A stretch of 32,000 nucleotides of DNA, taken from the NCBI RefSeq assembly GCF_964019745.1, contig NZ_OZ026462.1:120001-152000 (forward strand), in the 5' to 3' direction. This stretch comes from Candidatus Saccharimonadota bacterium. Lineage in GTDB: Bacteria; Pseudomonadota; Gammaproteobacteria; Burkholderiales; Burkholderiaceae. The notes under the pieces were generated by a model. That model saw only the letters and a list, made by a program, of their open reading frames with translations, was not told where the DNA came from and made no database searches. The number at the start of each line of letters is the position of its first letter. Position 1 is the first letter of the stretch. Shown here piece after piece: positions 3,236 to 31,376 of this stretch. The translations under genes and the position numbers were made by a program.

Positions 3236-3417
3236 AATTATATATTTTTCAAAAATTATTTTAAAAAAATATTTATATATTTATAATAATATATATTATT
3301 TATATATAATAAAAAAATAAAATATATATAATATATATTATTTTATATATTATTATAAATAATATATATTTAATATATATTAAAATTTAAAAATAATATT
3401 ATTAATATTTATAAAAT

Positions 3418-3555
3418 ATGAAAAGAACTTATCAACCATCTAAAATAAAACGTAAAAGAACTCATGGATTTAGAAAAAGAATGTCAACTAAAAATGGTAA
3501 AAATATTTTAAATTCAAGAAGATTAAAAAAAAGAAAATTTTTAATTAATTTATAA
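3418..3555 (+). CDS. rpmH: 50S ribosomal protein L34
   Basis: Hand translation gives [45 protein letters not shown] (45 aa), the canonical L34 sequence. It is too short for the supplied ORF track. Confidence 0.95.
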
Positions 3556-3569
3556 TTTTTATAAAATTT

Positions 3570-3886
3570 ATGAAAAAAAAAAGTTATATAATAAATAATT
3601 TTATTATTTTTTTTTTTTTAAAAAAAAAAAAAAAATAATTATTAATATTTCTAAAAAAATAATTAAAAAATCTACAAAAAGAAATGCTATAAAAAGAATA
3701 ATTAAAGAACATTTAAAATTTTTTTTTTTTAAAAAAAATATAATTATAAAATTATTTAAAATAAATAATATTTTTGATACTAATAATAATATTATTAAAA
3801 ATAATATTAAAAAAAAAATAAAAATTTTAATTATTTTTTTAAAAAAAAAAAAAATTATAAGCAATTTATTTATTAAAAATAAATAA
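3570..3886 (+). CDS. rnpA: RNase P protein component, with its reading frame interrupted inside a T13/A16 homopolymer pair
   Basis: It sits in the conserved position between rpmH and yidC. The ATG at 3570 opens MKKKSYIINNFIIFFFLKKKKK and hits TAA at 3636. The -1 frame continues from the A-run as IIINISKKIIKKSTKRNAIKRIIKEHLKFFFFKKN... to TAA at 3884-3886. KK-x-x-K-x-x-x-KRNAIKR-x-IKE is the RnpA 'RNR' motif. The downstream frame has no ATG. Confidence 0.65.
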
Positions 3887-3925
3887 AATTTTTTATATTA
3901 TATAATATATATTTTATATTAATTT

Positions 3926-8793: not shown

Positions 8794-9437
8794 ATGAAAT
8801 ATATAAGTGATATATTAAAAAAAAATTCTAAAAAAATAGGAGTTTTTTTAAAAAAAAATCAAATTAAAAAAATATTAAAATTTATTTTTTTAATAAAAAA
8901 ATGGAATAAAATTTATAATTTAACTTCTATAAAAACATCTAAAAAAATTATTTTTTTTCATATTTTAGATTCTTTAACAATTATAAAATATTTAAAAAAT
9001 AAAAATTATATTTTAGATGTTGGTTCAGGTGTAGGATTACCTGGAATAATAATTGCTATTTTATTAGAAAAAATATCTCCTAAAACTAAAATACATTTAA
9101 TAGATTCAAAAAATAAAAAAATAATATTTTTAAATCAAGTAAAAATAGAATTAAATTTAAAAAATATATCTATATTTTTAACAAGAGTAGAAAATTTTAA
9201 AAAAAAAAATTTTACGATATAATTATATCAAGAAGTTTAACAAATATAAAACAATTTATTAAATGGGCAAAACATTTATTAAAATTTAATGGATTTTTTT
9301 TTGCTATGAAAACAATAATTTCAAAAAAAGAAATTAATAATATACCTAAAAAATGGACAATTATAAAAAAAATATTTTTTAAAATTCCTAAAATTAAAAA
9401 AAAACATTTTTTAATAATAATTTCAAAAAAAAAATAA
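8794..9437 (+). CDS. rsmG: 16S rRNA (guanine527-N7)-methyltransferase RsmG (GidB), interrupted by a frame change in an A11 tract
   Basis: The tracked ORF 8794-9222 carries WNKIYNLTS ... HILDS ... LDVGSGVGLPGIIIAI ... LIDS-x-x-KK-x-x-FL and stops at TAA 9220-9222. The -1 frame continues from the A-run (9199-9209) as FYDIIISRSLTNIKQFIKWAKHLLKFNGFFFAMK... to TAA 9435-9437. This matches the conserved RsmG C-terminal half (FD-x-V-x-SRA ... G ... KG). Confidence 0.8.
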
Positions 9438-9442
9438 TTAAT

Positions 9443-10081
9443 ATGTTTAATATAAATATAATTGATAAAGGTAAAGAAGATTATAAAATAACATTTAAAA
9501 AAATGATTAATTTTATTAAAAAAAGAAATAAAAATACTATTAATGAAATATGGATTGTTGAACATAATCCATGTTTTACATTAGGTTTAAATGCAAATAT
9601 AAAAAATATTATTAATGCACATAATATTCCAATTATTAAAACAGATAGAGGAGGAGATGTAACTTATCATGGACCAGGTCAAATAGTAATTTACTTTTTA
9701 TTAAATTTATTTAAAAAAATTATTAAAAATAAATTTTATTTATTTAAATTTATTAATATTTTAGAAAATTCTATTATTGATACATTAAAAATGTATAACA
9801 TAAATAGTAAAAAAAAAAAAAAACCTGGAATTTATATAAGTAATGGTTTTTGGAAAAATGCAAAAATTGCTTTTTTAGGTTTAAAAATAACTAAAAAATA
9901 TTATACATATCATGGTATTTCTTTAAATATAAATATGAATTTAAAACCTTTTGAATATATTTATCCATGTGGATGTAAAAATATTAAAATTGTAGATATA
10001 AAAACTTTAAATTCTAAAATTTCTAAAAAAAATATAAAAAAAAATTTTATTAAAAAAATAATTTATTATTTAAATAAATAA
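9443..10081 (+). CDS. lipB: Octanoyltransferase (lipoate-protein ligase B)
   Basis: 212 aa with VEHNPCFTLG, the RGGDVTYHGPGQIVIY motif and the catalytic-Cys context YPCG. Confidence 0.9.
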   Translation: MFNINIIDKGKEDYKITFKKMINFIKKRNKNTINEIWIVEHNPCFTLGLNANIKNIINAHNIPIIKTDRGGDVTYHGPGQIVIYFLLNLFKKIIKNKFYLFKFINILENSIIDTLKMYNINSKKKKKPGIYISNGFWKNAKIAFLGLKITKKYYTYHGISLNINMNLKPFEYIYPCGCKNIKIVDIKTLNSKISKKNIKKNFIKKIIYYLNK

Positions 10082-10089
10082 ATTATATT

Positions 10090-10968
10090 ATGAATAATAA
10101 TAAAAAAATAATTAAAAAACCTAAATGGTTAAAAATAAAAACAAATTTTGAAAATAAAAATTTTTTTTCAATGAAAAAAATTTTAAAAATAAATAAAATT
10201 ATTACTGTATGTGAAGAAGCTGCTTGTCCAAATATTATAAAATGTTTTACAAAAGGTATTGCTACATTTATGATAATGGGAAATAAATGTACTAGAAAAT
10301 GTTTTTTTTGTAATATTAAAAATGGAAAACCAACAAAAATTGATATTAATGAACCAAAAAATATAGCAAATATAATTTTAAAATTAAAACTTGATTATGT
10401 TGTTATTACTAGTGTTACTAGAGATGATTTAAAAGATGGAGGTGCTGAACAATTTGCTAAATGTATAAAAAATATACGTAAAATATCTCCTAAAACTAAA
10501 ATAGAAATTTTAGTACCTGATTTTAAAAAAAAAAATAATTTAGCTATTAAAATTTTAAGTAAAAATTTACCAGATGTTATAAATCATAATATTGAAACTA
10601 CTTATAGATTATATAAAAAAATTAAACCAGGAGGAAATTATTTTAATTCATTAAAATTATTAAAAAAAATAAAATTAAATTTTCCTAATTTATTAACAAA
10701 ATCTGGATTAATAATAGGTTTAGGTGAAACTGATGAAGAAATTTTAAATACAATATATGATATTAAAAAAAATAATGTTGATATTTTAACTATTGGACAA
10801 TATTTAATGCCAACAAAAAAACATATTCCAGTTCATAGATATATAAAAAAAATAAAATTTAAAAAATTTAAAAAAGAAGCTTATAAATTAGGTTTTAAAA
10901 CTGTTATATCAGGACCTTTAGTAAGATCTAGTTATAAAGCTAATAAAATTTTTAAAAAAAAAAAATAA
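10090..10968 (+). CDS. lipA: Lipoyl synthase (radical SAM)
   Basis: 292 aa with the auxiliary cluster motif CEEAACPNIIKC, the radical-SAM motif CTRKCFFC and a C-terminal RSSY. Confidence 0.95.
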   Translation: MNNNKKIIKKPKWLKIKTNFENKNFFSMKKILKINKIITVCEEAACPNIIKCFTKGIATFMIMGNKCTRKCFFCNIKNGKPTKIDINEPKNIANIILKLKLDYVVITSVTRDDLKDGGAEQFAKCIKNIRKISPKTKIEILVPDFKKKNNLAIKILSKNLPDVINHNIETTYRLYKKIKPGGNYFNSLKLLKKIKLNFPNLLTKSGLIIGLGETDEEILNTIYDIKKNNVDILTIGQYLMPTKKHIPVHRYIKKIKFKKFKKEAYKLGFKTVISGPLVRSSYKANKIFKKKK

Positions 10969-11095
10969 AATATTTTTTTAAAAATATAAATTTATTGACT
11001 TTTGCAGAAAAAAAGTATATTTTATAAAAATACTCTTTAAAAATTTTTTTTTAAAAAAAAATTTTCTTTTAAAAAAAAAAAAAATATTTTTATAT

Positions 11096-11593
11096 ATAAA
11101 TTATATTTAGAAAATAAATTTTTAATTAAAGATTATTTAAAATTAAATTTAAATTAATAAATTATATTTAGAAAATAAATTTTTAATTAAAGATTATTTA
11201 AAATTAAATTTAAATTAATAAATTATATTTAGAAAATAAATTTTTAATTAAAGATTATTTAAAATTAAATTTAAATTAATAAATTATATTTAGAAAATAA
11301 ATTTTTAATTAAAGATTATTTAAAATTAAATTTAAATTAATAAATTATATTTAGAAAATAAATTTTTAATTAAAGATTATTTAAAATTAAATTTAAATTA
11401 ATAAATTATATTTAGAAAATAAATTTTTAATTAAAGATTATTTAAAATTAAATTTAAATTAATAAATTATATTTAGAAAATAAATTTTTAATTAAAGATT
11501 ATTTAAAATTAAATTTAAATTAATAAATTATATTTAGAAAATAAATTTTTAATTAAAGATTATTTAAAATTAAATTTAAATTAATAAATTATA
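11096..11593. repeat. Tandem array 1: 61-bp unit x about 8.2, all copies identical
   Basis: The unit is AAATTATATTTAGAAAATAAATTTTTAATTAAAGATTATTTAAAATTAAATTTAAATTAAT. In the 60-column listing each successive line is shifted by exactly 1 nt with no substitution. Confidence 0.95.
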
Positions 11594-11624
11594 CAAATAA
11601 TATTTATTAATATTTTATTTAAAT

Positions 11625-11706
11625 TTAATTATTTTTATAATAAATATAAAAATATTATTTAAATAAATTATTTTAATAATTATTATTAATTAATATTTAA
11701 TTAAAT
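11625..11706. repeat. Left copy of an approximately 82-bp direct repeat bracketing array 2
   Basis: TTAATTATTTTTATAATAAATATAAAAATATTATTTAAATAAATTATTTTAATAATTATTATTAATTAATATTTAATTAAATT aligns with 19761-19842, with about 5 mismatches in the hand alignment. Confidence 0.8.
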
Positions 11707-11708
11707 TA

Positions 11709-14700
11709 GTTATTAAATAATGTTTTATTAAATTAATTTTATAACTATTAGATTAGTTTTATAACTATTGGATTAGTTTTATAACGAGTTAAATTATTAA
11801 ATAATATTTTATTAGATTAACTTTATAACAAATTAAGTTATTAAATAATGTTTTATTAGATTAGTTTTATAACTATTAGATTAGTTTTATAACGAGTTAA
11901 ATTATTAAATAATATTTTATTAGATTAGTTTTATAACAAATTAAGTTATTAAATAATGTTTTATTAGATTAGTTTTATAACAAATTAAGTTATTAAATAA
12001 TGTTTTATTAGATTAATTTTATAACTATTAGATTAGTTTTATAACGAGTTAAATTATTAAATAATGTTTTATTAGATTAGTTTTATAACAAATTAAGTTA
12101 TTAAATAATGTTTTATTAGATTAGTTTTATAACAAATTAAGTTATTAAATAATGTTTTATTAGATTAGTTTTATAACAAATTAAGTTATTAAATAATGTT
12201 TTATTAGATTAGCTTTATAACAAATTAAGTTATTAAATAATGTTTTATTAGATTAGTTTTATAACAAATTAAGTTATTAAATAATGTTTTATTAGATTAA
12301 TTTTATAACTATTAGATTAGTTTTATAATGAGTTAAATTATTAAATAATGTTTTATTAGATTAGTTTTATAACAAATTAAGTTATTAAATAATGTTTTAT
12401 TAGATTAGCTTTATAACAAATTAAGTTATTAAATAATGTTTTATTAGATTAGTTTTATAACAAATTAAGTTATTAAATAATGTTTTATTAGATTAGTTTT
12501 ATAACAAATTAAGTTATTAAATAATGTTTTATTAGATTAGTTTTATAACAAATTAAGTTATTAAATAATGTTTTATTAGATTAATTTTATAACTATTAGA
12601 TTAGTTTTATAATGAGTTAAATTATTAAATAATGTTTTATTAGATTAGTTTTATAACAAATTAAGTTATTAAATAATGTTTTATTAGATTAGCTTTATAA
12701 CAAATTAAGTTATTAAATAATGTTTTATTAGATTAGTTTTATAACAAATTAAGTTATTAAATAATGTTTTATTAGATTAGTTTTATAACAAATTAAGTTA
12801 TTAAATAATGTTTTATTAGATTAATTTTATAACTATTAGATTAGTTTTATAATGAGTTAAATTATTAAATAATGTTTTATTAGATTAGTTTTATAACAAA
12901 TTAAGTTATTAAATAATGTTTTATTAGATTAGTTTTATAACAAATTAAGTTATTAAATAATGTTTTATTAGATTAGTTTTATAACAAATTAAGTTATTAA
13001 ATAATGTTTTATTAGATTAGTTTTATAACAAATTAAGTTATTAAATAATGTTTTATTAGATTAATTTTATAACTATTAGATTAGTTTTATAATGAGTTAA
13101 ATTATTAAATAATGTTTTATTAGATTAGTTTTATAACAAATTAAGTTATTAAATAATGTTTTATTAGATTAGTTTTATAACAAATTAAGTTATTAAATAA
13201 TGTTTTATTAGATTAGTTTTATAACAAATTAAGTTATTAAATAATGTTTTATTAGATTAATTTTATAACTATTAGATTAGTTTTATAACGAGTTAAATTA
13301 TTAAATAATGTTTTATTAGATTAGTTTTATAACAAATTAAGTTATTAAATAATGTTTTATTAGATTAGTTTTATAACAAATTAAGTTATTAAATAATGTT
13401 TTATTAGATTAATTTTATAACTATTAGATTAGTTTTATAATGAGTTAAATTATTAAATAATGTTTTATTAGATTAGTTTTATAACAAATTAAGTTATTAA
13501 ATAATGTTTTATTAGATTAGTTTTATAACAAATTAAGTTATTAAATAATGTTTTATTAGATTAGCTTTATAACAAATTAAGTTATTAAATAATGTTTTAT
13601 TAGATTAGTTTTATAACAAATTAAGTTATTAAATAATGTTTTATTAGATTAGTTTTATAACAAATTAAGTTATTAAATAATGTTTTATTAGATTAATTTT
13701 ATAACTATTAGATTAGTTTTATAACGAGTTAAATTATTAAATAATGTTTTATTAGATTAGTTTTATAACAAATTAAGTTATTAAATAATGTTTTATTAGA
13801 TTAGTTTTATAACAAATTAAGTTATTAAATAATGTTTTATTAGATTAGTTTTATAACAAATTAAGTTATTAAATAATGTTTTATTAGATTAGTTTTATAA
13901 CAAATTAAGTTATTAAATAATGTTTTATTAGATTAATTTTATAACTATTAGATTAGTTTTATAATGAGTTAAATTATTAAATAATGTTTTATTAGATTAG
14001 TTTTATAACAAATTAAGTTATTAAATAATGTTTTATTAGATTAGCTTTATAACAAATTAAGTTATTAAATAATGTTTTATTAGATTAGTTTTATAACAAA
14101 TTAAGTTATTAAATAATGTTTTATTAGATTAATTTTATAACTATTAGATTAGTTTTATAATGAGTTAAATTATTAAATAATGTTTTATTAGATTAGTTTT
14201 ATAACAAATTAAGTTATTAAATAATGTTTTATTAGATTAGTTTTATAACAAATTAAGTTATTAAATAATGTTTTATTAGATTAGTTTTATAACAAATTAA
14301 GTTATTAAATAATGTTTTATTAGATTAATTTTATAACTATTAGATTAGTTTTATAATGAGTTAAATTATTAAATAATGTTTTATTAGATTAGTTTTATAA
14401 CAAATTAAGTTATTAAATAATGTTTTATTAGATTAGCTTTATAACAAATTAAGTTATTAAATAATGTTTTATTAGATTAGTTTTATAATAAATTAAGTTA
14501 TTAAATAATGTTTTATTAGATTAGTTTTATAACAAATTAAGTTATTAAATAATGTTTTATTAGATTAATTTTATAACTATTAGATTAGTTTTATAACGAG
14601 TTAAATTATTAAATAATGTTTTATTAGATTAGTTTTATAACAAATTAAGTTATTAAATAATGTTTTATTAGATTAGTTTTATAACAAATAAAGTTATTAA

Positions 14701-17700
14701 ATAATGTTTTATTAGATTAGTTTTATAACAAATTAAGTTATTAAATAATGTTTTATTAGATTAGTTTTATAACAAATTAAGTTATTAAATAATGTTTTAT
14801 TAGATTAATTTTATAACTATTAGATTAGTTTTATAACGAGTTAAATTATTAAATAATGTTTTATTAGATTAGTTTTATAACAAATTAAGTTATTAAATAA
14901 TGTTTTATTAGATTAGCTTTATAACAAATTAAGTTATTAAATAATGTTTTATTAGATTAGTTTTATAACAAATTAAGTTATTAAATAATGTTTTATTAGA
15001 TTAGTTTTATAACAAATTAAGTTATTAAATAATGTTTTATTAGATTAATTTTATAACGAGTTAAATTATTAAATAATGTTTTATTAGATTAGTTTTATAA
15101 CAAATTAAGTTATTAAATAATGTTTTATTAGATTAGTTTTATAACAAATTAAGTTATTAAATAATGTTTTATTAGATTAATTTTATAACTATTAGATTAG
15201 TTTTATAACGAGTTAAATTATTAAATAATGTTTTATTAGATTAGTTTTATAACAAATTAAGTTATTAAATAATGTTTTATTAGATTAGTTTTATAACAAA
15301 TTAAGTTATTAAATAATGTTTTATTAGATTAATTTTATAACTATTAGATTAGTTTTATAATGAGTTAAATTATTAAATAATGTTTTATTAGATTAGTTTT
15401 ATAACAAATTAAGTTATTAAATAATGTTTTATTAGATTAGCTTTATAACAAATTAAGTTATTAAATAATGTTTTATTAGATTAGTTTTATAACAAATTAA
15501 GTTATTAAATAATGTTTTATTAGATTAGTTTTATAACAAATTAAGTTATTAAATAATGTTTTATTAGATTAATTTTATAACTATTAGATTAGTTTTATAA
15601 CGAGTTAAATTATTAAATAATGTTTTATTAGATTAGTTTTATAACAAATTAAGTTATTAAATAATGTTTTATTAGATTAGTTTTATAACAAATTAAGTTA
15701 TTAAATAATGTTTTATTAGATTAATTTTATAACTATTAGATTAGTTTTATAACGAGTTAAATTATTAAATAATGTTTTATTAGATTAGTTTTATAACAAA
15801 TTAAGTTATTAAATAATGTTTTATTAGATTAGTTTTATAACAAATAAAGTTATTAAATAATGTTTTATTAGATTAGTTTTATAACAAATTAAGTTATTAA
15901 ATAATGTTTTATTAGATTAGTTTTATAACAAATTAAGTTATTAAATAATGTTTTATTAGATTAGTTTTATAACAAATAAAGTTATTAAATAATGTTTTAT
16001 TAGATTAGTTTTATAACAAATTAAGTTATTAAATAATGTTTTATTAGATTAGTTTTATAACAAATTAAGTTATTAAATAATGTTTTATTAGATTAATTTT
16101 ATAACTATTAGATTAGTTTTATAACAAATTAAGTTATTAAATAATGTTTTATTAGATTAGCTTTATAACAAATTAAGTTATTAAATAATGTTTTATTAGA
16201 TTAGTTTTATAACAAATTAAGTTATTAAATAATGTTTTATTAGATTAGTTTTATAACAAATTAAGTTATTAAATAATGTTTTATTAGATTAGTTTTATAA
16301 CAAATTAAGTTATTAAATAATGTTTTATTAGATTAATTTTATAACTATTAGATTAGTTTTATAACAAATTAAGTTATTAAATAATGTTTTATTAGATTAG
16401 CTTTATAACAAATTAAGTTATTAAATAATGTTTTATTAGATTAGTTTTATAACAAATTAAGTTATTAAATAATGTTTTATTAGATTAGCTTTATAACAAA
16501 TTAAGTTATTAAATAATGTTTTATTAGATTAGTTTTATAACAAATTAAGTTATTAAATAATGTTTTATTAGATTAGTTTTATAACAAATTAAGTTATTAA
16601 ATAATGTTTTATTAGATTAATTTTATAACTATTAGATTAGTTTTATAACGAGTTAAATTATTAAATAATGTTTTATTAGATTAGTTTTATAACAAATTAA
16701 GTTATTAAATAATGTTTTATTAGATTAGTTTTATAACAAATAAAGTTATTAAATAATGTTTTATTAGATTAGTTTTATAACAAATTAAGTTATTAAATAA
16801 TGTTTTATTAGATTAATTTTATAACTATTAGATTAGTTTTATAACGAGTTAAATTATTAAATAATGTTTTATTAGATTAGTTTTATAACAAATTAAGTTA
16901 TTAAATAATGTTTTATTAGATTAGCTTTATAACAAATTAAGTTATTAAATAATGTTTTATTAGATTAGTTTTATAACAAATTAAGTTATTAAATAATGTT
17001 TTATTAGATTAGTTTTATAACAAATTAAGTTATTAAATAATGTTTTATTAGATTAATTTTATAACTATTAGATTAGTTTTATAACGAGTTAAATTATTAA
17101 ATAATGTTTTATTAGATTAGTTTTATAACAAATTAAGTTATTAAATAATGTTTTATTAGATTAGTTTTATAACAAATAAAGTTATTAAATAATGTTTTAT
17201 TAGATTAGTTTTATAACAAATTAAGTTATTAAATAATGTTTTATTAGATTAATTTTATAACTATTAGATTAGTTTTATAACGAGTTAAATTATTAAATAA
17301 TGTTTTATTAGATTAGTTTTATAACAAATTAAGTTATTAAATAATGTTTTATTAGATTAGCTTTATAACAAATTAAGTTATTAAATAATGTTTTATTAGA
17401 TTAGTTTTATAACAAATTAAGTTATTAAATAATGTTTTATTAGATTAGTTTTATAACAAATTAAGTTATTAAATAATGTTTTATTAGATTAATTTTATAA
17501 CGAGTTAAATTATTAAATAATGTTTTATTAGATTAGTTTTATAACAAATTAAGTTATTAAATAATGTTTTATTAGATTAGTTTTATAACAAATTAAGTTA
17601 TTAAATAATGTTTTATTAGATTAATTTTATAACTATTAGATTAGTTTTATAACGAGTTAAATTATTAAATAATGTTTTATTAGATTAGTTTTATAACAAA

Positions 17701-19759
17701 TTAAGTTATTAAATAATGTTTTATTAGATTAGTTTTATAACAAATTAAGTTATTAAATAATGTTTTATTAGATTAATTTTATAACTATTAGATTAGTTTT
17801 ATAATGAGTTAAATTATTAAATAATGTTTTATTAGATTAGTTTTATAACAAATTAAGTTATTAAATAATGTTTTATTAGATTAGCTTTATAACAAATTAA
17901 GTTATTAAATAATGTTTTATTAGATTAGTTTTATAACAAATTAAGTTATTAAATAATGTTTTATTAGATTAGTTTTATAACAAATTAAGTTATTAAATAA
18001 TGTTTTATTAGATTAATTTTATAACTATTAGATTAGTTTTATAACGAGTTAAATTATTAAATAATGTTTTATTAGATTAGTTTTATAACAAATTAAGTTA
18101 TTAAATAATGTTTTATTAGATTAGTTTTATAACAAATAAAGTTATTAAATAATGTTTTATTAGATTAGTTTTATAACAAATTAAGTTATTAAATAATGTT
18201 TTATTAGATTAGTTTTATAACAAATTAAGTTATTAAATAATGTTTTATTAGATTAGTTTTATAACAAATAAAGTTATTAAATAATGTTTTATTAGATTAG
18301 TTTTATAACAAATTAAGTTATTAAATAATGTTTTATTAGATTAGTTTTATAACAAATTAAGTTATTAAATAATGTTTTATTAGATTAATTTTATAACTAT
18401 TAGATTAGTTTTATAACAAATTAAGTTATTAAATAATGTTTTATTAGATTAGCTTTATAACAAATTAAGTTATTAAATAATGTTTTATTAGATTAGTTTT
18501 ATAACAAATTAAGTTATTAAATAATGTTTTATTAGATTAGTTTTATAACAAATTAAGTTATTAAATAATGTTTTATTAGATTAATTTTATAACGAGTTAA
18601 ATTATTAAATAATGTTTTATTAGATTAGTTTTATAACAAATTAAGTTATTAAATAATGTTTTATTAGATTAGTTTTATAACAAATTAAGTTATTAAATAA
18701 TGTTTTATTAGATTAATTTTATAACTATTAGATTAGTTTTATAACGAGTTAAATTATTAAATAATGTTTTATTAGATTAGTTTTATAACAAATTAAGTTA
18801 TTAAATAATGTTTTATTAGATTAGTTTTATAACAAATTAAGTTATTAAATAATGTTTTATTAGATTAATTTTATAACTATTAGATTAGTTTTATAATGAG
18901 TTAAATTATTAAATAATGTTTTATTAGATTAGTTTTATAACAAATTAAGTTATTAAATAATGTTTTATTAGATTAGCTTTATAACAAATTAAGTTATTAA
19001 ATAATGTTTTATTAGATTAGTTTTATAACAAATTAAGTTATTAAATAATGTTTTATTAGATTAGTTTTATAACAAATTAAGTTATTAAATAATGTTTTAT
19101 TAGATTAATTTTATAACTATTAGATTAGTTTTATAACGAGTTAAATTATTAAATAATGTTTTATTAGATTAGTTTTATAACAAATTAAGTTATTAAATAA
19201 TGTTTTATTAGATTAGTTTTATAACAAATAAAGTTATTAAATAATGTTTTATTAGATTAGTTTTATAACAAATTAAGTTATTAAATAATGTTTTATTAGA
19301 TTAGTTTTATAACAAATTAAGTTATTAAATAATGTTTTATTAGATTAGTTTTATAACTATTAGATTAGTTTTATAACGAGTTAAATTATTAAATAATGTT
19401 TTATTAGATTAGTTTTATAACAAATTAAGTTATTAAATAATGTTTTATTAGATTAGCTTTATAACAAATTAAGTTATTAAATAATGTTTTATTAGATTAG
19501 TTTTATAACAAATTAAGTTATTAAATAATGTTTTATTAGATTAGTTTTATAACAAATTAAGTTATTAAATAATGTTTTATTAGATTAATTTTATAACTAT
19601 TAGATTAGTTTTATAACGAGTTAAATTATTAAATAATGTTTTATTAGATTAGTTTTATAACAAATTAAGTTATTAAATAATGTTTTATTAGATTAGTTTT
19701 ATAACAAATAAAGTTATTAAATAATGTTTTATTAAATTAATTTTATAATAAATTAAGTT
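11709..19759. repeat. Tandem array 2: 44-bp basic unit with a 64-bp variant, about 167 units (8.05 kb), higher-order organised
   Basis: The consensus is GTTATTAAATAATGTTTTATTAGATTAGTTTTATAACAAATTAA. My hand parse gives about 133 units of 44 bp and about 34 units of 64 bp (one of them 84 bp). That sums to 8048 bp against 8051 bp observed. Confidence 0.95.
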
Positions 19760-19760
19760 A

Positions 19761-19842
19761 TTAATTATTTTTATAATAAACATAAAAATATTATTTAAAT
19801 AAATTAATTTAATAATTATTATTAAATAATATTTAAATTAAT
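19761..19842. repeat. Right copy of the approximately 82-bp direct repeat bracketing array 2
   Basis: TTAATTATTTTTATAATAAACATAAAAATATTATTTAAATAAATTAATTTAATAATTATTATTAAATAATATTTAAATTAATT begins 1 nt after the last 44-bp unit. A further partial copy (GTTATTAATTATTTTTAAT) occurs near 19856. Confidence 0.8.
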
Positions 19843-19938
19843 TAATTTTACAATAAGTTATTAATTATTTTTAATATTAAAAATAAAAAGATTATAATAT
19901 AAATATTAATATTTTAATAAATTTATATAAATAAATTA

Positions 19939-22900
19939 TTAGTTATTTTTATAAAAATATTAAAAAATAATTATTAATTTATTAATTTATTAATTTATTA
20001 ATTTATTAATTTATTAATTTATTAATTTATTAATTTATTAATTTATTAATTTATTAATTTATTAATTTATTAATTTATTAATTTATTAATTTAATATCAT
20101 TAATAAGATATAATAAATTAATATTTTTATTAATTTTTGTTTATATAAATAAAATATATATAAATTTATATATATAAATTGTTAATTATTTTTATTATAG
20201 TATTAAAAAATAATTAATAATTTATTAATTTAATATTTTAATAAAACTTAATGAATAAATATTATTATTAATTTTTAAATTTATTTTTTTTATATAGATA
20301 AAATATATATAAATTTATATAGGTAAATTGTTAATTATTTTTATTATAGTATTAAAAAATAATTAATAATTTATTAATTTAATATTTTAATAAAACTTAA
20401 TGAACAAATATTATTATTAATTTTTAAATTTATTTTTTTTATATAGATAAAATATATATAAATTTATATAGGTAAATTGTTAATTATTTTTATTATAGTA
20501 TTAAAAAATAATTAATAATTTATTAATTTAATATTTTAATAAAACTTAATGAACAAATATTATTATTAATTTTTAAATTTATTTTTTTTATATAGATAAA
20601 ATATATATAAATTTATATAGGTAAATTGTTAATTATTTTTATTATAGTATTAAAAAATAATTAATAATTTATTAATTTAATATTTTAATAAAACTTAATG
20701 AACAAATATTATTATTAATTTTTAAATTTATTTTTTTTATATAGATAAAATATATATAAATTTATATAGGTAAATTGTTAATTATTTTTATTATAGTATT
20801 AAAAAATAATTAATAATTTATTAATTTAATATTTTAATAAAACTTAATGAACAAATATTATTATTAATTTTTAAATTTATTTTTTTTATATAGATAAAAT
20901 ATATATAAATTTATATAGGTAAATTGTTAATTATTTTTATTATAGTATTAAAAAATAATTAATAATTTATTAATTTAATATTTTAATAAAACTTAATGAA
21001 CAAATATTATTATTAATTTTTAAATTTATTTTTTTTATATAGATAAAATATATATAAATTTATATAGGTAAATTGTTAATTATTTTTATTATAGTATTAA
21101 AAAATAATTAATAATTTATTAATTTAATATTTTAATAAAACTTAATAAACAAATATTATTATTAATTTTTAAATTTATTTTTTTTATATAGATAAAATAT
21201 ATATAAATTTATATAGGTAAATTGTTAATTATTTTTATTATAGTATTAAAAAATAATTAATAATTTATTAATTTAATATTTTAATAAAACTTAATGAACA
21301 AATATTATTATTAATTTTTAAATTTATTTTTTTTATATAGATAAAATATATATAAATTTATATAGGTAAATTGTTAATTATTTTTATTATAGTATTAAAA
21401 AATAATTAATAATTTATTAATTTATTAATTTAATATTTTAATAAAACTTAATGAACAAATATTATTATTAATTTTTAAATTTATTTTTTTTATATAGATA
21501 AAATATATATAAATTTATATAGGTAAATTGTTAATTATTTTTATTATAGTATTAAAAAATAATTAATAATTTATTAATTTAATATTTTAATAAAACTTAA
21601 TGAACAAATATTATTATTAATTTTTAAATTTATTTTTTTTATATAGATAAAATATATATAAATTTATATAGGTAAATTGTTAATTATTTTTATTATAGTA
21701 TTAAAAAATAATTAATAATTTATTAATTTATTAATTTAATATTTTAATAAAACTTAATGAACAAATATTATTATTAATTTTTAAATTTATTTTTTTTATA
21801 TAGATAAAATATATATAAATTTATATAGGTAAATTGTTAATTATTTTTATTATAGTATTAAAAAATAATTAATAATTTATTAATTTAATATTTTAATAAA
21901 ACTTAATGAACAAATATTATTATTAATTTTTAAATTTATTTTTTTTATATAGATAAAATATATATAAATTTATATAGGTAAATTGTTAATTATTTTTATT
22001 ATAGTATTAAAAGATAATTAATAATTTAATAATTTATTAATTTAATATTTTAATAAAACTTAATGAACAAATATTATTATTAATTTTTAAATTTATTTTT
22101 TTTATATAGATAAAATATATATAAATTTATATAGGTAAATTGTTAATTATTTTTATTATAGTATTAAAAAATAATTAATAATTTATTAATTTAATATTTT
22201 AATAAAACTTAATGAACAAATATTATTATTAATTTTTAAATTTATTTTTTTTATATAGATAAAATATATATAAATTTATATAGGTAAATTGTTAATTATT
22301 TTTATTATAGTATTAAAAAATAATTAATAATTTATTAATTTATTAATTTAATATTTTAATAAAACTTAATGAACAAATATTATTATTAATTTTTAAATTT
22401 ATTTTTTTTATATAGATAAAATATATATAAATTTATATAGGTAAATTGTTAATTATTTTTATTATAGTATTAAAAAATAATTAATAATTTATTAATTTAA
22501 TATTTTAATAAAACTTAATGAACAAATATTATTATTAATTTTTAAATTTATTTTTTTTATATAGATAAAATATATATAAATTTATATAGGTAAATTGTTA
22601 ATTATTTTTATTATAGTATTAAAAAATAATTAATAATTTATTAATTTATTAATTTAATATTTTAATAAAACTTAATGAACAAATATTATTATTAATTTTT
22701 AAATTTATTTTTTTTATATAGATAAAATATATATAAATTTATATAGGTAAATTGTTAATTATTTTTATTATAGTATTAAAAAATAATTAATAATTTATTA
22801 ATTTAATATTTTAATAAAACTTAATGAACAAATATTATTATTAATTTTTAAATTTATTTTTTTTATATAGATAAAATATATATAAATTTATATAGGTAAA

Positions 22901-23186
22901 TTGTTAATTATTTTTATTATAGTATTAAAAAATAATTAATAATTTATTAATTTATTAATTTATTAATTTAATATTTTAATAAAACTTAATGAACAAATAT
23001 TATTATTAATTTTTAAATTTATTTTTTTTATATAGATAAAATATATATAAATTTATATAGATAAATTGTTAATTATTTTTATTATAGTATTAAAAAATAA
23101 TTAATAATTTATTAATTTATTAATTTAATATTTTATTAAAATTTAATAAATAAATATTTTTATTTATATAAATAAAATATATATTT
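19939..23186. repeat. Tandem array 3: 149-bp unit x 19 full copies, plus a degenerate first unit and a partial last unit
   Basis: The unit is TTAATTATTTTTATTATAGTATTAAAAAATAATTAATAATTTATTAATTTAATATTTTAATAAAACTTAATGAACAAATATTATTATTAATTTTTAAATTTATTTTTTTTATATAGATAAAATATATATAAATTTATATAGGTAAATTG. Unit starts are 20182, 20331, ... 23069. Unit lengths are 149 (x13), 157 (x5) and 165 (x1). Confidence 0.95.
19971..20093. repeat. 8-bp microsatellite (TTATTAAT) x about 15, lying inside the degenerate first unit of array 3
   Basis: Perfect period-8 run. The same motif is present in 2-4 copies inside every 149-bp unit. Confidence 0.95.
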
Positions 23187-23214
23187 TTTTAATTAAAAAT
23201 TTTAATAAATTATT

Positions 23215-23316
23215 AATTATTTAAAATTATTTAAAATTATTTAAAATTATTTAAAATTATTTAAAATTATTTAAAATTATTTAAAATTATTTAAAATTAT
23301 TTAAAATTATTTAAAA
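23215..23316. repeat. 10-bp tandem repeat (TTAAAATTAT) x about 10, a phased A4 tract
   Basis: Perfect period-10 run, ending about 300 bp upstream of the 16S 5' end. Confidence 0.95.
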
Positions 23317-23340
23317 AAATATTAAAAATTTTTTTAAATA

Positions 23341-23369
23341 TTGTTTACTTTTTAAATAAAATATAATAT
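23341..23369 (+). promoter_or_regulatory. Candidate sigma70-type promoter for the rRNA operon (weak call)
   Basis: TTGTTT (23341-46) is followed by N15 then TATAAT (23362-67), or by N17 then TAATAT. It lies about 255 bp upstream of the 16S gene. -10-like hexamers occur by chance everywhere in DNA this AT-rich. Confidence 0.2.
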
Positions 23370-23619
23370 AATATATTAAAAGAATATTTTATATTTATAT
23401 AAAAAAAATTATATAATTTAATTTAAAAAAAATTATTTTAATTTTTTGAAAATAATAATATATTGATAATAAAAATTATATTAAAAATTATATATAATAT
23501 TTAATTATATTATATTAATTTAATTAATTTTTAAATATAAATTTTATTTTTATTAAAAGTTTTTTTGTTTTTGTAAAATTTTTATAAGTATTTAAAATAA
23601 ATTATAAGTTATTTTTTTA

Positions 23620-25163
<1,544 letters not shown>

Positions 25164-25292
25164 TAGAGGAACATAAAATTAAATATTTATATTTATTATT
25201 ATTTTATTTTTTACTAAATAGAGTAAGATTTTTTTGAGAAACAAAATATATTAAAAAAATATATTAATTTTTAAGATTTATTTAATATTATA

Positions 25293-28202
<2,910 letters not shown>

Positions 28203-28291
28203 ATGATATTTTTATTTTAAATAAAAAAAAATTTTATTTTTAAATTTTATATAAATTTAAAAATAAAATTTTTAAAATTATTATTTTAATT

Positions 28292-28408
28292 AGCCTGATA
28301 ATCATAGCGAATTGGAACCACTCTTTACCATTCCGAACAAGAAAGTGAAACGATTTTGCGCCGATGATAGTACTATAACTAGTGTGAAAGTAGGTAATTA
28401 TCAGGTTA
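28292..28408 (+). rRNA. rrf: 5S ribosomal RNA
   Basis: AGCCTGATAATCATAGCG ... CCGAAC-x-GAAGTGAAAC ... GCGCCGATGATAGT ... GTAGGTAATTATCAGGTT is collinear with the E. coli 5S. Confidence 0.9.
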
Positions 28409-31097: not shown

Positions 31098-31170
31098 TGG
31101 GCTGTGTGGGATTTGAACCCACGACAAACGGATTAAAAGTCCGCTGCTCTACCAACTGAGCTAACAACCC
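31098..31170 (-). tRNA. tRNA-Lys (anticodon UUU)
   Basis: The reverse complement is GGGTTGTTAGCTCAGTTGGTAGAGCAGCGGACTTTTAATCCGTTTGTCGTGGGTTCAAATCCCACACAGCCCA. The acceptor stem GGGTTGT/ACAGCCC has 7 bp including one G:U. The anticodon arm is GCGGA-CTTTTAA-TCCGT and the T-arm contains GGTTCAAATCC. No CCA is encoded. Confidence 0.9.
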
Positions 31171-31174
31171 TTTT

Positions 31175-31292
31175 TATATATATTATATATATTATATATA
31201 TTATATATATTATATATATTATATATATTATATATATTATATATATTATATATATTATATATATTATATATATTATATATATTATATATATA
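31175..31292. repeat. 9-bp microsatellite (TATATATTA) x about 13
   Basis: TT dinucleotides recur every 9 nt from 31183 to 31282. The array lies between the divergent tRNA-Lys and glyA genes. Confidence 0.95.
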
Positions 31293-31376
31293 AACTTTTT
31301 TATATTATAATATATATATTATATATATAATTTATATTTATAACAATTATTTTTAAAAGAAATAAATTTAAAATAT

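What the first reader, a model, noticed from the sequence alone, without database searches (positions are those of the whole stretch)
19939..23186. 149-bp satellite with a nested, length-variable 8-bp microsatellite and a 306-bp dimeric higher-order phase
Nineteen full units start at 20182, 20331 ... 22904. They are more than 99% identical; I saw only a handful of substitutions, for example at about 20256, 21146, 22014 and 23061. Unit length varies only at an internal (TTATTAAT)n tract. The first eight units are 149 bp. From 21374 to 22904 the units alternate strictly 157/149 bp, giving five 306-bp dimers. The last full unit is 165 bp. In the degenerate first unit the same microsatellite has expanded to about 15 copies (19971-20093). 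This is a repeat within a repeat, showing slippage at two scales and a dimeric higher-order phase.
Basis: seen in the sequence. Interest (0 to 1): 0.65.

Follow-up and report, generated by a model that had tools for sequence, protein, structure and literature searches.

The report
Tandem-repeat DNA in a tiny endosymbiont genome
The 149-bp repeat array is real and exactly as described, but it is non-coding repeat DNA in a very small, extremely AT-rich bacterial endosymbiont-type genome, one part of a 12-kb block of repeats just upstream of the ribosomal RNA genes, and it most likely arose by copying errors rather than for any function.

Summary
There are 19 full units starting at 20182–22904, with lengths 8×149, then 5×(157,149), then 165 bp. 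Only 5 substitutions occur in 2,887 bp. All length variation sits in one (TTTATTAA)n tract, and the same octamer runs to 15.4 perfect copies in the diverged first unit.

The window is bacterial: 16.7% GC, MnmG closest to Oxalobacteraceae at 55–57%, and its own contig is 336,619 bp. The array lies in a 12,651-bp spacer between lipA and the 16S-23S-5S operon. That spacer also holds a perfect 61-bp ×8 array, an 8-kb 44-bp array with its own higher-order mosaics, and a perfect 10-bp ×10 array.

I found no ORFs, no excess of promoter-like sites, no helical phasing, no notable single-strand structure, no DnaA boxes and no copies elsewhere.

Best explanation: functionless intergenic minisatellites made by replication slippage and out-of-register exchange. 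The 306-bp phase comes from one octamer gain followed by two-unit duplications. The kind is known (Wolbachia VNTR-141/-105, Portiera, Evansia, Ehrlichia ruminantium). Only the scale is unusual, at 3.6% of a 337-kb genome in one locus. Copy numbers need confirmation with long reads.

The parts
19939..20181 (+). Diverged first unit of the 149-bp array (243 bp). It contains the expanded octamer microsatellite at 19971-20093 (TTATTAAT x15.4, 100% perfect).
   Evidence: TRF; alignment to the unit consensus; 88% identity with the microsatellite trimmed.
20182..21373 (+). Eight consecutive 149-bp units with one octamer copy each. Two singleton substitutions, at 20256 and 21147.
21374..22903 (+). Five 306-bp dimers, each a 157-bp unit (two octamers) followed by a 149-bp unit (one octamer). 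The third dimer carries two private substitutions, at 22013 and 22029.
   Evidence: period 306, 98% matches; permutation 81/200,000.
22904..23068 (+). Last full unit, 165 bp (three octamers), with G>A at 23061.
23069..23200 (+). Truncated, diverged terminal unit (two octamers, 21-bp internal deletion) that grades into unique spacer sequence.
   Evidence: 91% identity.
11096..11593 (+). Context: 61-bp array, 8.2 copies, 100% identical, 3.2% GC.
11746..19764 (+). Context: 44-bp array of 199 units in 12 sequence types. About 165 are full 44-mers, interspersed with 33 truncated 20-bp units. This gives variable higher-order periods (196, 240 ...) and kb-scale re-duplicated motifs.
11595..11750 (+). 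Context: left copy of a ~100-150-bp direct repeat that brackets the 44-bp array. The right copy is at 19719-19879.
   Evidence: Local alignment, 83% identity, z = 10.8 against shuffles.
19719..19879 (+). Context: right copy of the bracketing direct repeat. It lies in the junction zone between the 44-bp and 149-bp arrays (TRF period 105, 19707-19934).
23215..23316 (+). Context: perfect 10-bp array (AATTATTTAA x10.2) between the 149-bp array and the best rRNA-promoter candidate.
23344..23372 (+). Context: best sigma-70-like promoter candidate for the rRNA operon (TTTACT-17-TATAAT, 10/12). This is a consensus match only.
23620..28406 (+). Context: 16S (23620-25163), 23S (25296-28202) and 5S (28294-28406) rRNA genes immediately downstream of the repeat block.
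   Evidence: Rfam.
10090..10968 (+). Context: lipA (radical SAM lipoyl synthase), the last protein gene before the 12,651-bp repeat-filled spacer.

Best explanation
The 149-bp array is a non-coding intergenic minisatellite (VNTR-type locus). It sits in the chromosome of a tiny, extremely AT-rich betaproteobacterial endosymbiont-type genome. It is one of four unrelated tandem arrays that have inflated the lipA-rRNA spacer to 12.65 kb.

Proposed mechanism (inferred, not shown):
- Almost pure A+T spacer DNA provides many short self-similar tracts.
- Slipped-strand mispairing during replication changes the octamer count inside a unit. This is the small scale.
- Out-of-register template switching or unequal exchange between sister or sibling chromosome copies adds and removes whole units and keeps them nearly identical. 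This is the large scale.
- One unit gained one octamer (149 to 157 bp). Later duplications happened in a two-unit (306-bp) register and produced five 157+149 dimers.
- Units at the array edges take part in fewer exchanges. They have therefore diverged, and their microsatellites have drifted to 15, 3 and 2 copies.

The array most likely has no sequence-specific function. It persists because selection against extra DNA is weak in such genomes and, probably, because repair and recombination control is reduced.
For: Shown:
- Exact tandem structure and 99.8% unit identity.
- Length variation confined to the octamer tract.
- Diverged edge units.
- Alternation unlikely under random placement (81/200,000).
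- No ORF of 25 aa or more anywhere in 10969-23619 apart from one 31-aa chance ORF.
- Promoter-like sites not enriched (229 found, 226.8 +/- 13.4 in shuffles) and no terminators.
- No 10-11-bp AA/TT phasing in the unit (0.2 against a null mean of 0.48).
- Single-strand folding no better than shuffles (z = -0.13).
- No Rfam family in the spacer and no DnaA boxes.

The neighbouring arrays show the same behaviour independently:
- The 61-, 44- and 149-bp units are not significantly similar to each other (z between -1.3 and 1.6).
- The 44-bp array has 12 unit types in variable higher-order blocks and lies inside an older ~100-bp direct repeat.

Composition matches the genome's own spacers. The arrays are 3-12% GC and the spacer at 3236-3417 is 0.5% GC. 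G>C and T>A skew is as expected for the leading strand.

AT-richness alone does not explain the arrays. In 80 mnmG-centred loci from other genomes (1.45 Mb), including a 16.9%-GC beetle symbiont, the highest TRF coverage is 1,770 of 21,848 bp. The window has 14,945 of 32,000 bp.

Precedents from the literature:
- Slippage-driven tandem repeats and enlarged spacers in Portiera (PMC3673631; PMC7821994).
- Tandem repeats of 100-330 bp in Evansia (PMC4122945).
- 141- and 105-bp VNTRs with 98-99% identical periods and internally shortened periods in Wolbachia, attributed to slippage plus concerted evolution (PMC3287509).
- Repeat-associated indels make up about 90% of indel density in Sulcia and Nasuia (PMC13345377).
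Against: Nothing here measures function directly. The absence of recognisable motifs in 95% A+T DNA is weak evidence of absence.

Four separate arrays in the one spacer that precedes the rRNA operon in this window, within about 20 kb of the likely origin, could reflect something local rather than neutrality. Examples are a selected role or a local mutational hotspot.

The near-perfect identity could be exaggerated by consensus polishing of the assembly.

The inferred weakness of repair cannot be checked, because only 32 kb of the 337-kb genome is available. No second strain or relative was found to show copy-number variation.
Confidence: 0.75

Rival explanations
1. The array is real, but its fine structure is partly an assembly or polishing artefact. 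This would cover exactly 19 units, strict 157/149 alternation and 99.8% identity. Real molecules would carry a mixture of copy numbers and a less regular order.
For: Near-identical 149-bp units spanning 3 kb, next to an 8-kb 44-bp array, are hard to assemble. Consensus polishing homogenises units. Endosymbiont populations are polyploid and are known to be structurally heterogeneous at repeats (PMC3673631). No independent assembly could be found.
Against: The array carries five singleton substitutions and a defined gradient of diverged edge units, which collapsed or invented repeats usually lack. The alternation is confined to one contiguous block, as a duplication series predicts. The same multi-scale pattern appears independently in the 44-bp array.
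Confidence: 0.12
2. The repeat block is a selected upstream element of the rRNA operon. It would be a bacterial analogue of UP-element, Fis or curved-DNA activation, or of eukaryotic rDNA spacer repeats. Its role would be to concentrate RNA polymerase or a nucleoid or host protein, or to insulate the operon.
For: Position: all four arrays lie directly upstream of, and co-oriented with, the 16S-23S-5S operon. A perfect 10-bp-period array (23215-23316) ends 28 bp before the best promoter candidate at 23344-23372. The layout of several sub-repeat families ahead of rRNA genes resembles eukaryotic rDNA spacers (my own knowledge, not tested).
Against: The 149-bp array ends about 145-215 bp upstream of the candidate -35 hexamer, and most of it lies 0.3-3 kb away. 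Its unit has no promoter match of 10/12 or better, and promoter-like sites are not enriched in the spacer. There is no helical phasing and no boxA-like signal above chance. The three large arrays share no motif. No comparable arrays occur in 80 other loci, but those loci are centred on mnmG, not on rRNA operons.
Confidence: 0.07
3. The block functions in chromosome replication or segregation. It could be an easily melted zone for DnaA-independent initiation, or a centromere-like platform replacing the parABS system near the origin.
For: The block lies 8-20 kb from the GC-skew switch and the rpmH-rnpA-yidC-mnmE-mnmG-rsmG cluster, which marks origin regions in proteobacteria. In a free-living relative, parA-parB follow rsmG, but they are absent from that position here. 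The DNA is 88-97% A+T.
Against: The skew minimum is at about 3-6 kb, not inside the arrays, which all show the same strong positive skew. There are no DnaA boxes in the spacer. The sequence holds almost no C, so a parS-like palindrome is impossible. The three arrays are unrelated in sequence.
Confidence: 0.03
4. The arrays are host (eukaryotic) satellite DNA wrongly joined into the bacterial contig.
For: The 149-bp unit length and the higher-order pattern look eukaryotic.
Against: Bacterial genes flank the block on both sides in one consistent replication orientation. Array composition (3-12% GC, G>C, T>A) matches this genome's own spacers and leading-strand skew. The arrays grade into unique sequence through diverged units.
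Confidence: 0.02

Closest known systems
Wolbachia intergenic VNTR loci VNTR-141 and VNTR-105 (Riegler et al. 2012, PMC3287509)
   Same: Both are non-coding intergenic tandem arrays in an intracellular bacterium. Periods are 105-141 bp, close to 149 bp. Periods are 98-99% identical. Arrays mix full periods with periods altered by short internal indels or sub-repeats. The interpretation given there is slipped-strand mispairing plus concerted evolution.
   Different: Wolbachia arrays have at most ~7 copies (about 1.3 kb) in 1.1-1.5-Mb genomes, and their periods contain 23-bp hairpins. Here there are 20 copies (3.2 kb) inside a 12.2-kb multi-array block in a 337-kb genome. The unit has no notable hairpin. 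The internal variable element is a true octamer microsatellite. Copy-number polymorphism is documented for Wolbachia but is untested here.
Genome instability and repeat-rich enlarged spacers in 'Candidatus Portiera aleyrodidarum' of Bemisia and Singhiella (Sloan & Moran 2013, PMC3673631; Santos-Garcia et al. 2020, PMC7821994)
   Same: Both are tiny obligate-symbiont genomes (about 0.28-0.36 Mb) with abnormally long intergenic regions full of tandem repeats. Both show a characteristic short repeat unit (7 bp in Portiera, 8-10 bp here). Both run against the usual deletion bias.
   Different: Portiera repeats are mostly short microsatellites spread over many spacers, and they are tied to loss of dnaQ, mutL and other genes. 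Here the repeats seen are concentrated in one spacer as long minisatellite arrays with higher-order structure. The repair gene content is unknown, because only 32 kb is visible.
Tandem repeats in 'Candidatus Evansia muelleri' and in Ehrlichia ruminantium
   Same: Both have tandem repeats in reduced intracellular genomes. Evansia (357 kb) has eight. E. ruminantium is cited as the bacterium with the highest tandem-repeat content.
   Different: Evansia's repeats are 100-330 bp in total each, which is one to two orders of magnitude smaller than the arrays here.
Eukaryotic satellite DNA with higher-order repeats (e.g. alpha satellite), and organelle tandem-repeat regions (e.g. the 4.4-kb repeat region of the Ciliophrys mitogenome, bioRxiv 10.64898/2026.03.27.714854)
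   Same: The formal pattern matches: roughly 150-bp monomers, multi-monomer periodicity, homogenised core units and diverged edges. Organelle genomes show that multi-kb non-coding tandem blocks can persist in small, polyploid, uniparentally inherited genomes.
   Different: This is not eukaryotic chromatin and has no centromere context. The 'higher order' here is defined by a single 8-bp indel, not by diverged monomer types. Statements about alpha satellite rest on my own knowledge.

Membership tests
Bacterial intergenic VNTR / minisatellite locus | Head-to-tail copies of one unit (period about 10-500 bp) | tested here: met
   TRF period 149, 20.2 copies. Exact spacing list. 20 motif matches against 0 expected.
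Bacterial intergenic VNTR / minisatellite locus | Located in non-coding DNA between genes of a bacterial chromosome | tested here: met
   Lies between lipA (10090-10968) and 16S (23620). No ORF of 25 aa or more within the 149-bp array.
Bacterial intergenic VNTR / minisatellite locus | High identity among periods (concerted evolution) | tested here: met
   5 substitutions in 2,887 bp.
Bacterial intergenic VNTR / minisatellite locus | Copy number varies among isolates or molecules | not testable with these tools
   No second assembly, relative or reads were found.
Portiera-type endosymbiont genome instability | Enlarged, tandem-repeat-rich intergenic regions in a genome under 0.5 Mb | tested here: met
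   The contig is 336,619 bp. The spacer is 12,651 bp. 14,945 of 32,000 bp fall in TRF arrays, against at most 1,770 of 21,848 bp in 80 control loci.
Portiera-type endosymbiont genome instability | Loss of replication, repair or recombination genes (dnaQ, mutL, ruvC, ...) | not testable with these tools
   Only the 32-kb window is available, and the rest of the genome could not be retrieved.
Eukaryotic satellite DNA with higher-order repeats | Resides in a eukaryotic chromosome (centromeric or heterochromatic) | tested here: not met
   Bacterial rRNA operon and bacterial housekeeping genes flank it. MnmG is closest to Oxalobacteraceae.
Eukaryotic satellite DNA with higher-order repeats | Multi-monomer blocks more alike than neighbouring monomers, with diverged monomer types | tested here: inconclusive
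   Period 306 scores 98% against 95% for period 149. However, the two monomers differ only by one octamer and have no diagnostic substitutions.
rRNA promoter upstream activating region (UP element / Fis sites / curved DNA) or spacer-promoter repeats | Units carry promoter-like or phased A-tract signals and lie within about 150 bp of the promoter | tested here: not met
   No enrichment of promoter-like sites. No 10-11-bp phasing in the unit. The array ends at least 145 bp upstream of the candidate -35 hexamer at 23344.
CRISPR array | Short repeats separated by unique spacers of similar length | tested here: not met
   Whole 149-bp units are identical and there are no unique spacers.
Replication origin (DnaA boxes / iterons) | Cluster of DnaA boxes at the GC-skew switch | tested here: not met
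   Four TTWTNCACA matches in the window (3.25 expected), none in the spacer. The skew switch is at about 3-6 kb.

The most novel reading that the evidence does not exclude
The 12-kb block, including the 149-bp array, could be a selected structure rather than junk. It might be a bacterial counterpart of the eukaryotic rDNA intergenic spacer, with sub-repeat arrays that load polymerase or a nucleoid or host-supplied protein ahead of the rRNA operon. Alternatively, it might be an easily melted or centromere-like zone near the origin, in a genome where parAB are missing from their usual place next to rsmG. My tests found no motif, phasing or structure to support either idea. They are weak tests in 95% A+T DNA and do not exclude it.
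Probability: 0.05. Interest if true: 0.8.

Novelty: new member of a known kind. Interest (0 to 1): 0.38.

Why it matters
Tiny obligate-symbiont genomes are the textbook case of relentless DNA loss and near-total coding density. Here one spacer holds 12.2 kb of near-perfect tandem repeats, 3.6% of a 337-kb genome. That is another, unusually large, exception of the kind first seen in whitefly Portiera. It suggests that expansion by slippage can locally outrun deletion.

In practice, the 149-bp array with its embedded octamer, and the neighbouring arrays, would make very sensitive markers for strain typing. They could also be used to measure within-host heteroplasmy and RecA-independent repeat dynamics in an unculturable bacterium.

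The locus also warns annotators. Satellite-like sequence with a higher-order phase is not proof of eukaryotic origin.

Tried and rejected
- **Naming the organism or finding a second assembly.** Exact-protein look-ups for LipA, RibE and MnmG found nothing. The unit motif is absent from genome contigs, metagenome contigs and viral contigs. The 44-mer is absent from metagenome contigs. blastn of a dimer against plasmids and phages found nothing.
- **Looking for relatives.** Relatives of MnmG in genome contigs are all 58% identical or less. The best protein hit (P0002, 57%) is a free-living Burkholderiales contig. Comparative analysis of the spacer was therefore impossible.
- **Literature candidates.** Several were checked and rejected as the source: 'Ca. 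Mirabilia' (a gammaproteobacterium, 166 kb), the Eriococcidae Burkholderia (870 kb, 37% GC) and the Ciliophrys symbiont (Rickettsiales, 1.5 Mb). A search for the contig length found nothing relevant.
- **Common ancestry of the arrays.** A shared origin for the 149-, 44- and 61-bp units is not supported.
- **Promoter arrays.** Not supported.
- **Intrinsic curvature from phased A-tracts.** Not supported for the 149-bp unit.
- **Hairpin-driven slippage as in Wolbachia VNTRs.** No special single-strand structure.
- **Coding potential.** None.
- **DnaA boxes or origin.** None in the spacer.
- **rRNA antitermination boxA.** No signal above chance.
- **Alternative genetic code.** Not needed. All 14 ORFs end in TAA and Trp is encoded by TGG.
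Full report
**Observation.** Tandem Repeats Finder reports an array of period 149 at 20067-23130 (20.2 copies). It scores the same span at period 306 (10.1 copies) with 98% matches, against 95% at period 149. It also reports a perfect 8-bp array, TTATTAAT x15.4, at 19971-20093.

The spacings are 149 x8, then 157/149 x5, then 165. A MAFFT alignment shows that the 19 full units differ from their consensus by five substitutions only: 20256 C>T, 21147 G>A, 22013 A>G, 22029 T>A and 23061 G>A. All length differences are 1, 2 or 3 copies of the octamer TTTATTAA at one place in the unit.

The unit before the array (19939-20181) is an 88%-identical copy in which that octamer has grown to 15 copies. The unit after it (23069-23200) is a 91%-identical, internally deleted copy. 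A 28-nt unit motif matches 20 times, against 0 expected in shuffles. Given the mix of unit lengths, an alternating run as long as the one observed arises in 81 of 200,000 permutations.

**What the sequence is.** The window is not eukaryotic. Rfam finds full-length bacterial 16S (23620-25163), 23S (25296-28202) and 5S (28294-28406) genes immediately downstream of the array. The genes upstream are:
- ubiA, fumC, rplS and rpsP;
- then, on the other strand, rpmH, a weak rnpA, yidC, mnmE, mnmG, rsmG, lipB and lipA.

Overall GC is 16.7%, third-codon-position GC is 2-8%, and all 14 ORFs end in TAA. MnmG is 55-57% identical to Oxalobacteraceae proteins. The window's own protein sits on a single 336,619-bp contig. 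This is the profile of a highly reduced obligate endosymbiont of betaproteobacterial origin. I could not name it, and no close relative exists in the collections available.

GC skew changes sign at about 3-6 kb, next to the rpmH-yidC-mnmG cluster. The repeat region therefore lies on the leading strand, 8-20 kb from the probable origin.

**The wider locus.** The 149-bp array is one tenant of a 12,651-bp spacer between lipA and 16S. That spacer is almost entirely tandem DNA:
- a 61-bp array, 8.2 copies, 100% identical (11096-11593);
- an 8-kb array of 199 units of a 44-bp repeat (11746-19764). It has 12 sequence types, and 33 truncated 20-bp units create variable higher-order periods (196, 240 ...) and kb-scale re-duplicated motifs;
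- the 149-bp array;
- a perfect 10-bp x10.2 array (23215-23316).

The 44-bp array is itself bracketed by two copies of an older ~100-bp repeat (83% identity, z = 10.8). The 61-, 44- and 149-bp units are not detectably related to each other (z from -1.3 to 1.6). Several independent amplifications therefore occurred at one locus. 'Repeat within repeat' with higher-order phases is the rule there, not a peculiarity of the 149-bp array.

The block is 12,221 bp, or 3.6% of the contig. In a control set of 80 mnmG-centred loci from other bacteria (1.45 Mb), the highest TRF coverage was 1,770 of 21,848 bp. That set includes symbionts of 17-29% GC. The window has 14,945 of 32,000 bp. AT-richness alone does not produce this.

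**Tests for function.** I looked for evidence of function and found none:
- No ORF of 25 aa or more lies in the 149-bp array.
- No Rfam family matches in the spacer.
- Sigma-70-like sites are not enriched (229 against 226.8 +/- 13.4), and no terminator-like sites occur.
- The 149-bp unit has no match of 10/12 or better. The best candidate rRNA promoter (TTTACT-17-TATAAT, 23344-23372) lies at least 145 bp beyond the array.
- AA/TT helical phasing in the unit is below the shuffled mean.
- The unit folds as single-stranded DNA no better than shuffles (z = -0.13).
- There are no DnaA boxes in the spacer and no boxA-like signal above chance.

These are weak tests in DNA that is 88-97% A+T, but none points to function. 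The arrays do share the composition of this genome's other spacers (down to 0.5% GC at 3236-3417) and the leading-strand bias G>C, T>A. That argues they are native and have been shaped by this chromosome's mutation pattern. It argues against a chimeric join to host satellite DNA.

**Most likely mechanism.** This part is inferred. Slipped-strand mispairing changes the octamer number within a unit. Out-of-register template switching or unequal exchange between chromosome copies changes the number of whole units and homogenises them. One octamer gain produced a 157-bp unit. Later duplications in a two-unit register produced five identical 157+149 dimers. Two private substitutions in the third dimer arose afterwards. 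The edge units, which are rarely involved in exchange, have diverged, and their microsatellites have drifted to 15, 3 and 2 copies.

Because the two monomers of a dimer differ only by that one octamer, this is a very young duplication series. It is not a diverged higher-order repeat.

**Comparison with known cases.** The kind is known.
- Wolbachia VNTR-141 and VNTR-105 are intergenic arrays of 141- and 105-bp periods. The periods are 98-99% identical, and complete periods are mixed with internally shortened ones. They are explained by slippage and concerted evolution (PMC3287509).
- Portiera of Bemisia and Singhiella has enlarged, repeat-rich spacers and a 7-bp repeat spike. These features are linked to loss of dnaQ and other repair genes (PMC3673631; PMC7821994).
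- Evansia (357 kb) has eight tandem repeats of 100-330 bp (PMC4122945).
- In Sulcia and Nasuia, repeat contexts account for about 90% of indel density (PMC13345377).
- Organelle genomes can also hold multi-kb tandem blocks.

What differs here is scale and concentration: 12.2 kb in one spacer of a 337-kb genome, with arrays of 20 and about 200 units. I found no report of a comparable block in a genome this small, but my literature search was limited. I therefore file the finding as a new, unusually large member of a known kind.

**Caveats.**
- The exact copy numbers, the strict alternation and the near-perfect identity come from one assembly and cannot be checked without reads.
- Whether copy number varies, and whether repair genes are missing, could not be tested.
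- A functional role upstream of the rRNA operon or near the origin is not excluded. I put it at about 5-10% in total.

Noticed in passing
window 11746-19764: 8-kb array of a 44-bp unit: 199 units in 12 sequence types, with 33 truncated 20-bp units that create variable higher-order periods (196/240 bp) and kb-scale re-duplicated unit motifs. It is bracketed by two copies of an older ~100-bp repeat (11595-11750 and 19719-19879).
   Followed up: yes
window 11096-11593: 61-bp array, 8.2 copies, 100% identical, 3.2% GC with no C at all. It begins 128 bp after the lipA stop codon.
   Followed up: partly
window 23215-23316 and 23344-23372: Perfect 10-bp array (AATTATTTAA x10.2), whose period is close to the DNA helical repeat. 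It ends 28 bp before the best rRNA promoter candidate (TTTACT-17-TATAAT). It could act as curved or UP-like upstream DNA, but this was not tested beyond the consensus scan.
   Followed up: partly
window 8794-9437: rsmG (gidB) is split by a frameshift inside an A11 run at about 9198-9208. The N-terminal ORF matches GidB profile positions 1-113 and the C-terminal frame matches positions 113-179. It is either a pseudogene or a gene rescued by slippage at the poly(A) tract, as described for other endosymbionts.
   Followed up: yes
window 3236-3925: Small genes missed by the 80-aa ORF list: rpmH (3418-3555, L34, E = 1e-21) and a weak rnpA-like ORF (3599-3886). The 182-bp rpsP-rpmH spacer (3236-3417) is 0.5% GC and full of AT microsatellites. 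It lies between divergently oriented genes close to the GC-skew switch, so it is the probable replication origin. It has no DnaA boxes.
   Followed up: partly
window 25164-25295: The 16S-23S spacer is only 132 bp and contains no tRNA gene, unlike the usual tRNA-Ile/tRNA-Ala spacer of proteobacteria.
   Followed up: no
window 31174-31342: A 9-bp microsatellite (TTATATATA x18.8, 88% matches) directly beside tRNA-Lys (31098-31170, minus strand). This shows that repeat expansion is not confined to the lipA-rRNA spacer.
   Followed up: no
window 8794-10968 compared with L081 8872-11267: In the closest free-living relative found, mnmG-rsmG is followed by parA-parB and the atp operon. In the window, rsmG is followed by lipB-lipA and the repeat block, so parAB are missing from this position.
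   Followed up: partly
window, all 14 ORFs: Every ORF of 80 aa or more starts with ATG and ends with TAA. Third-position GC is 2-8%. Tryptophan is TGG, so there is no sign of UGA recoding, unlike the betaproteobacterial symbionts Zinderia and Nasuia (that comparison is from my own knowledge).
   Followed up: yes
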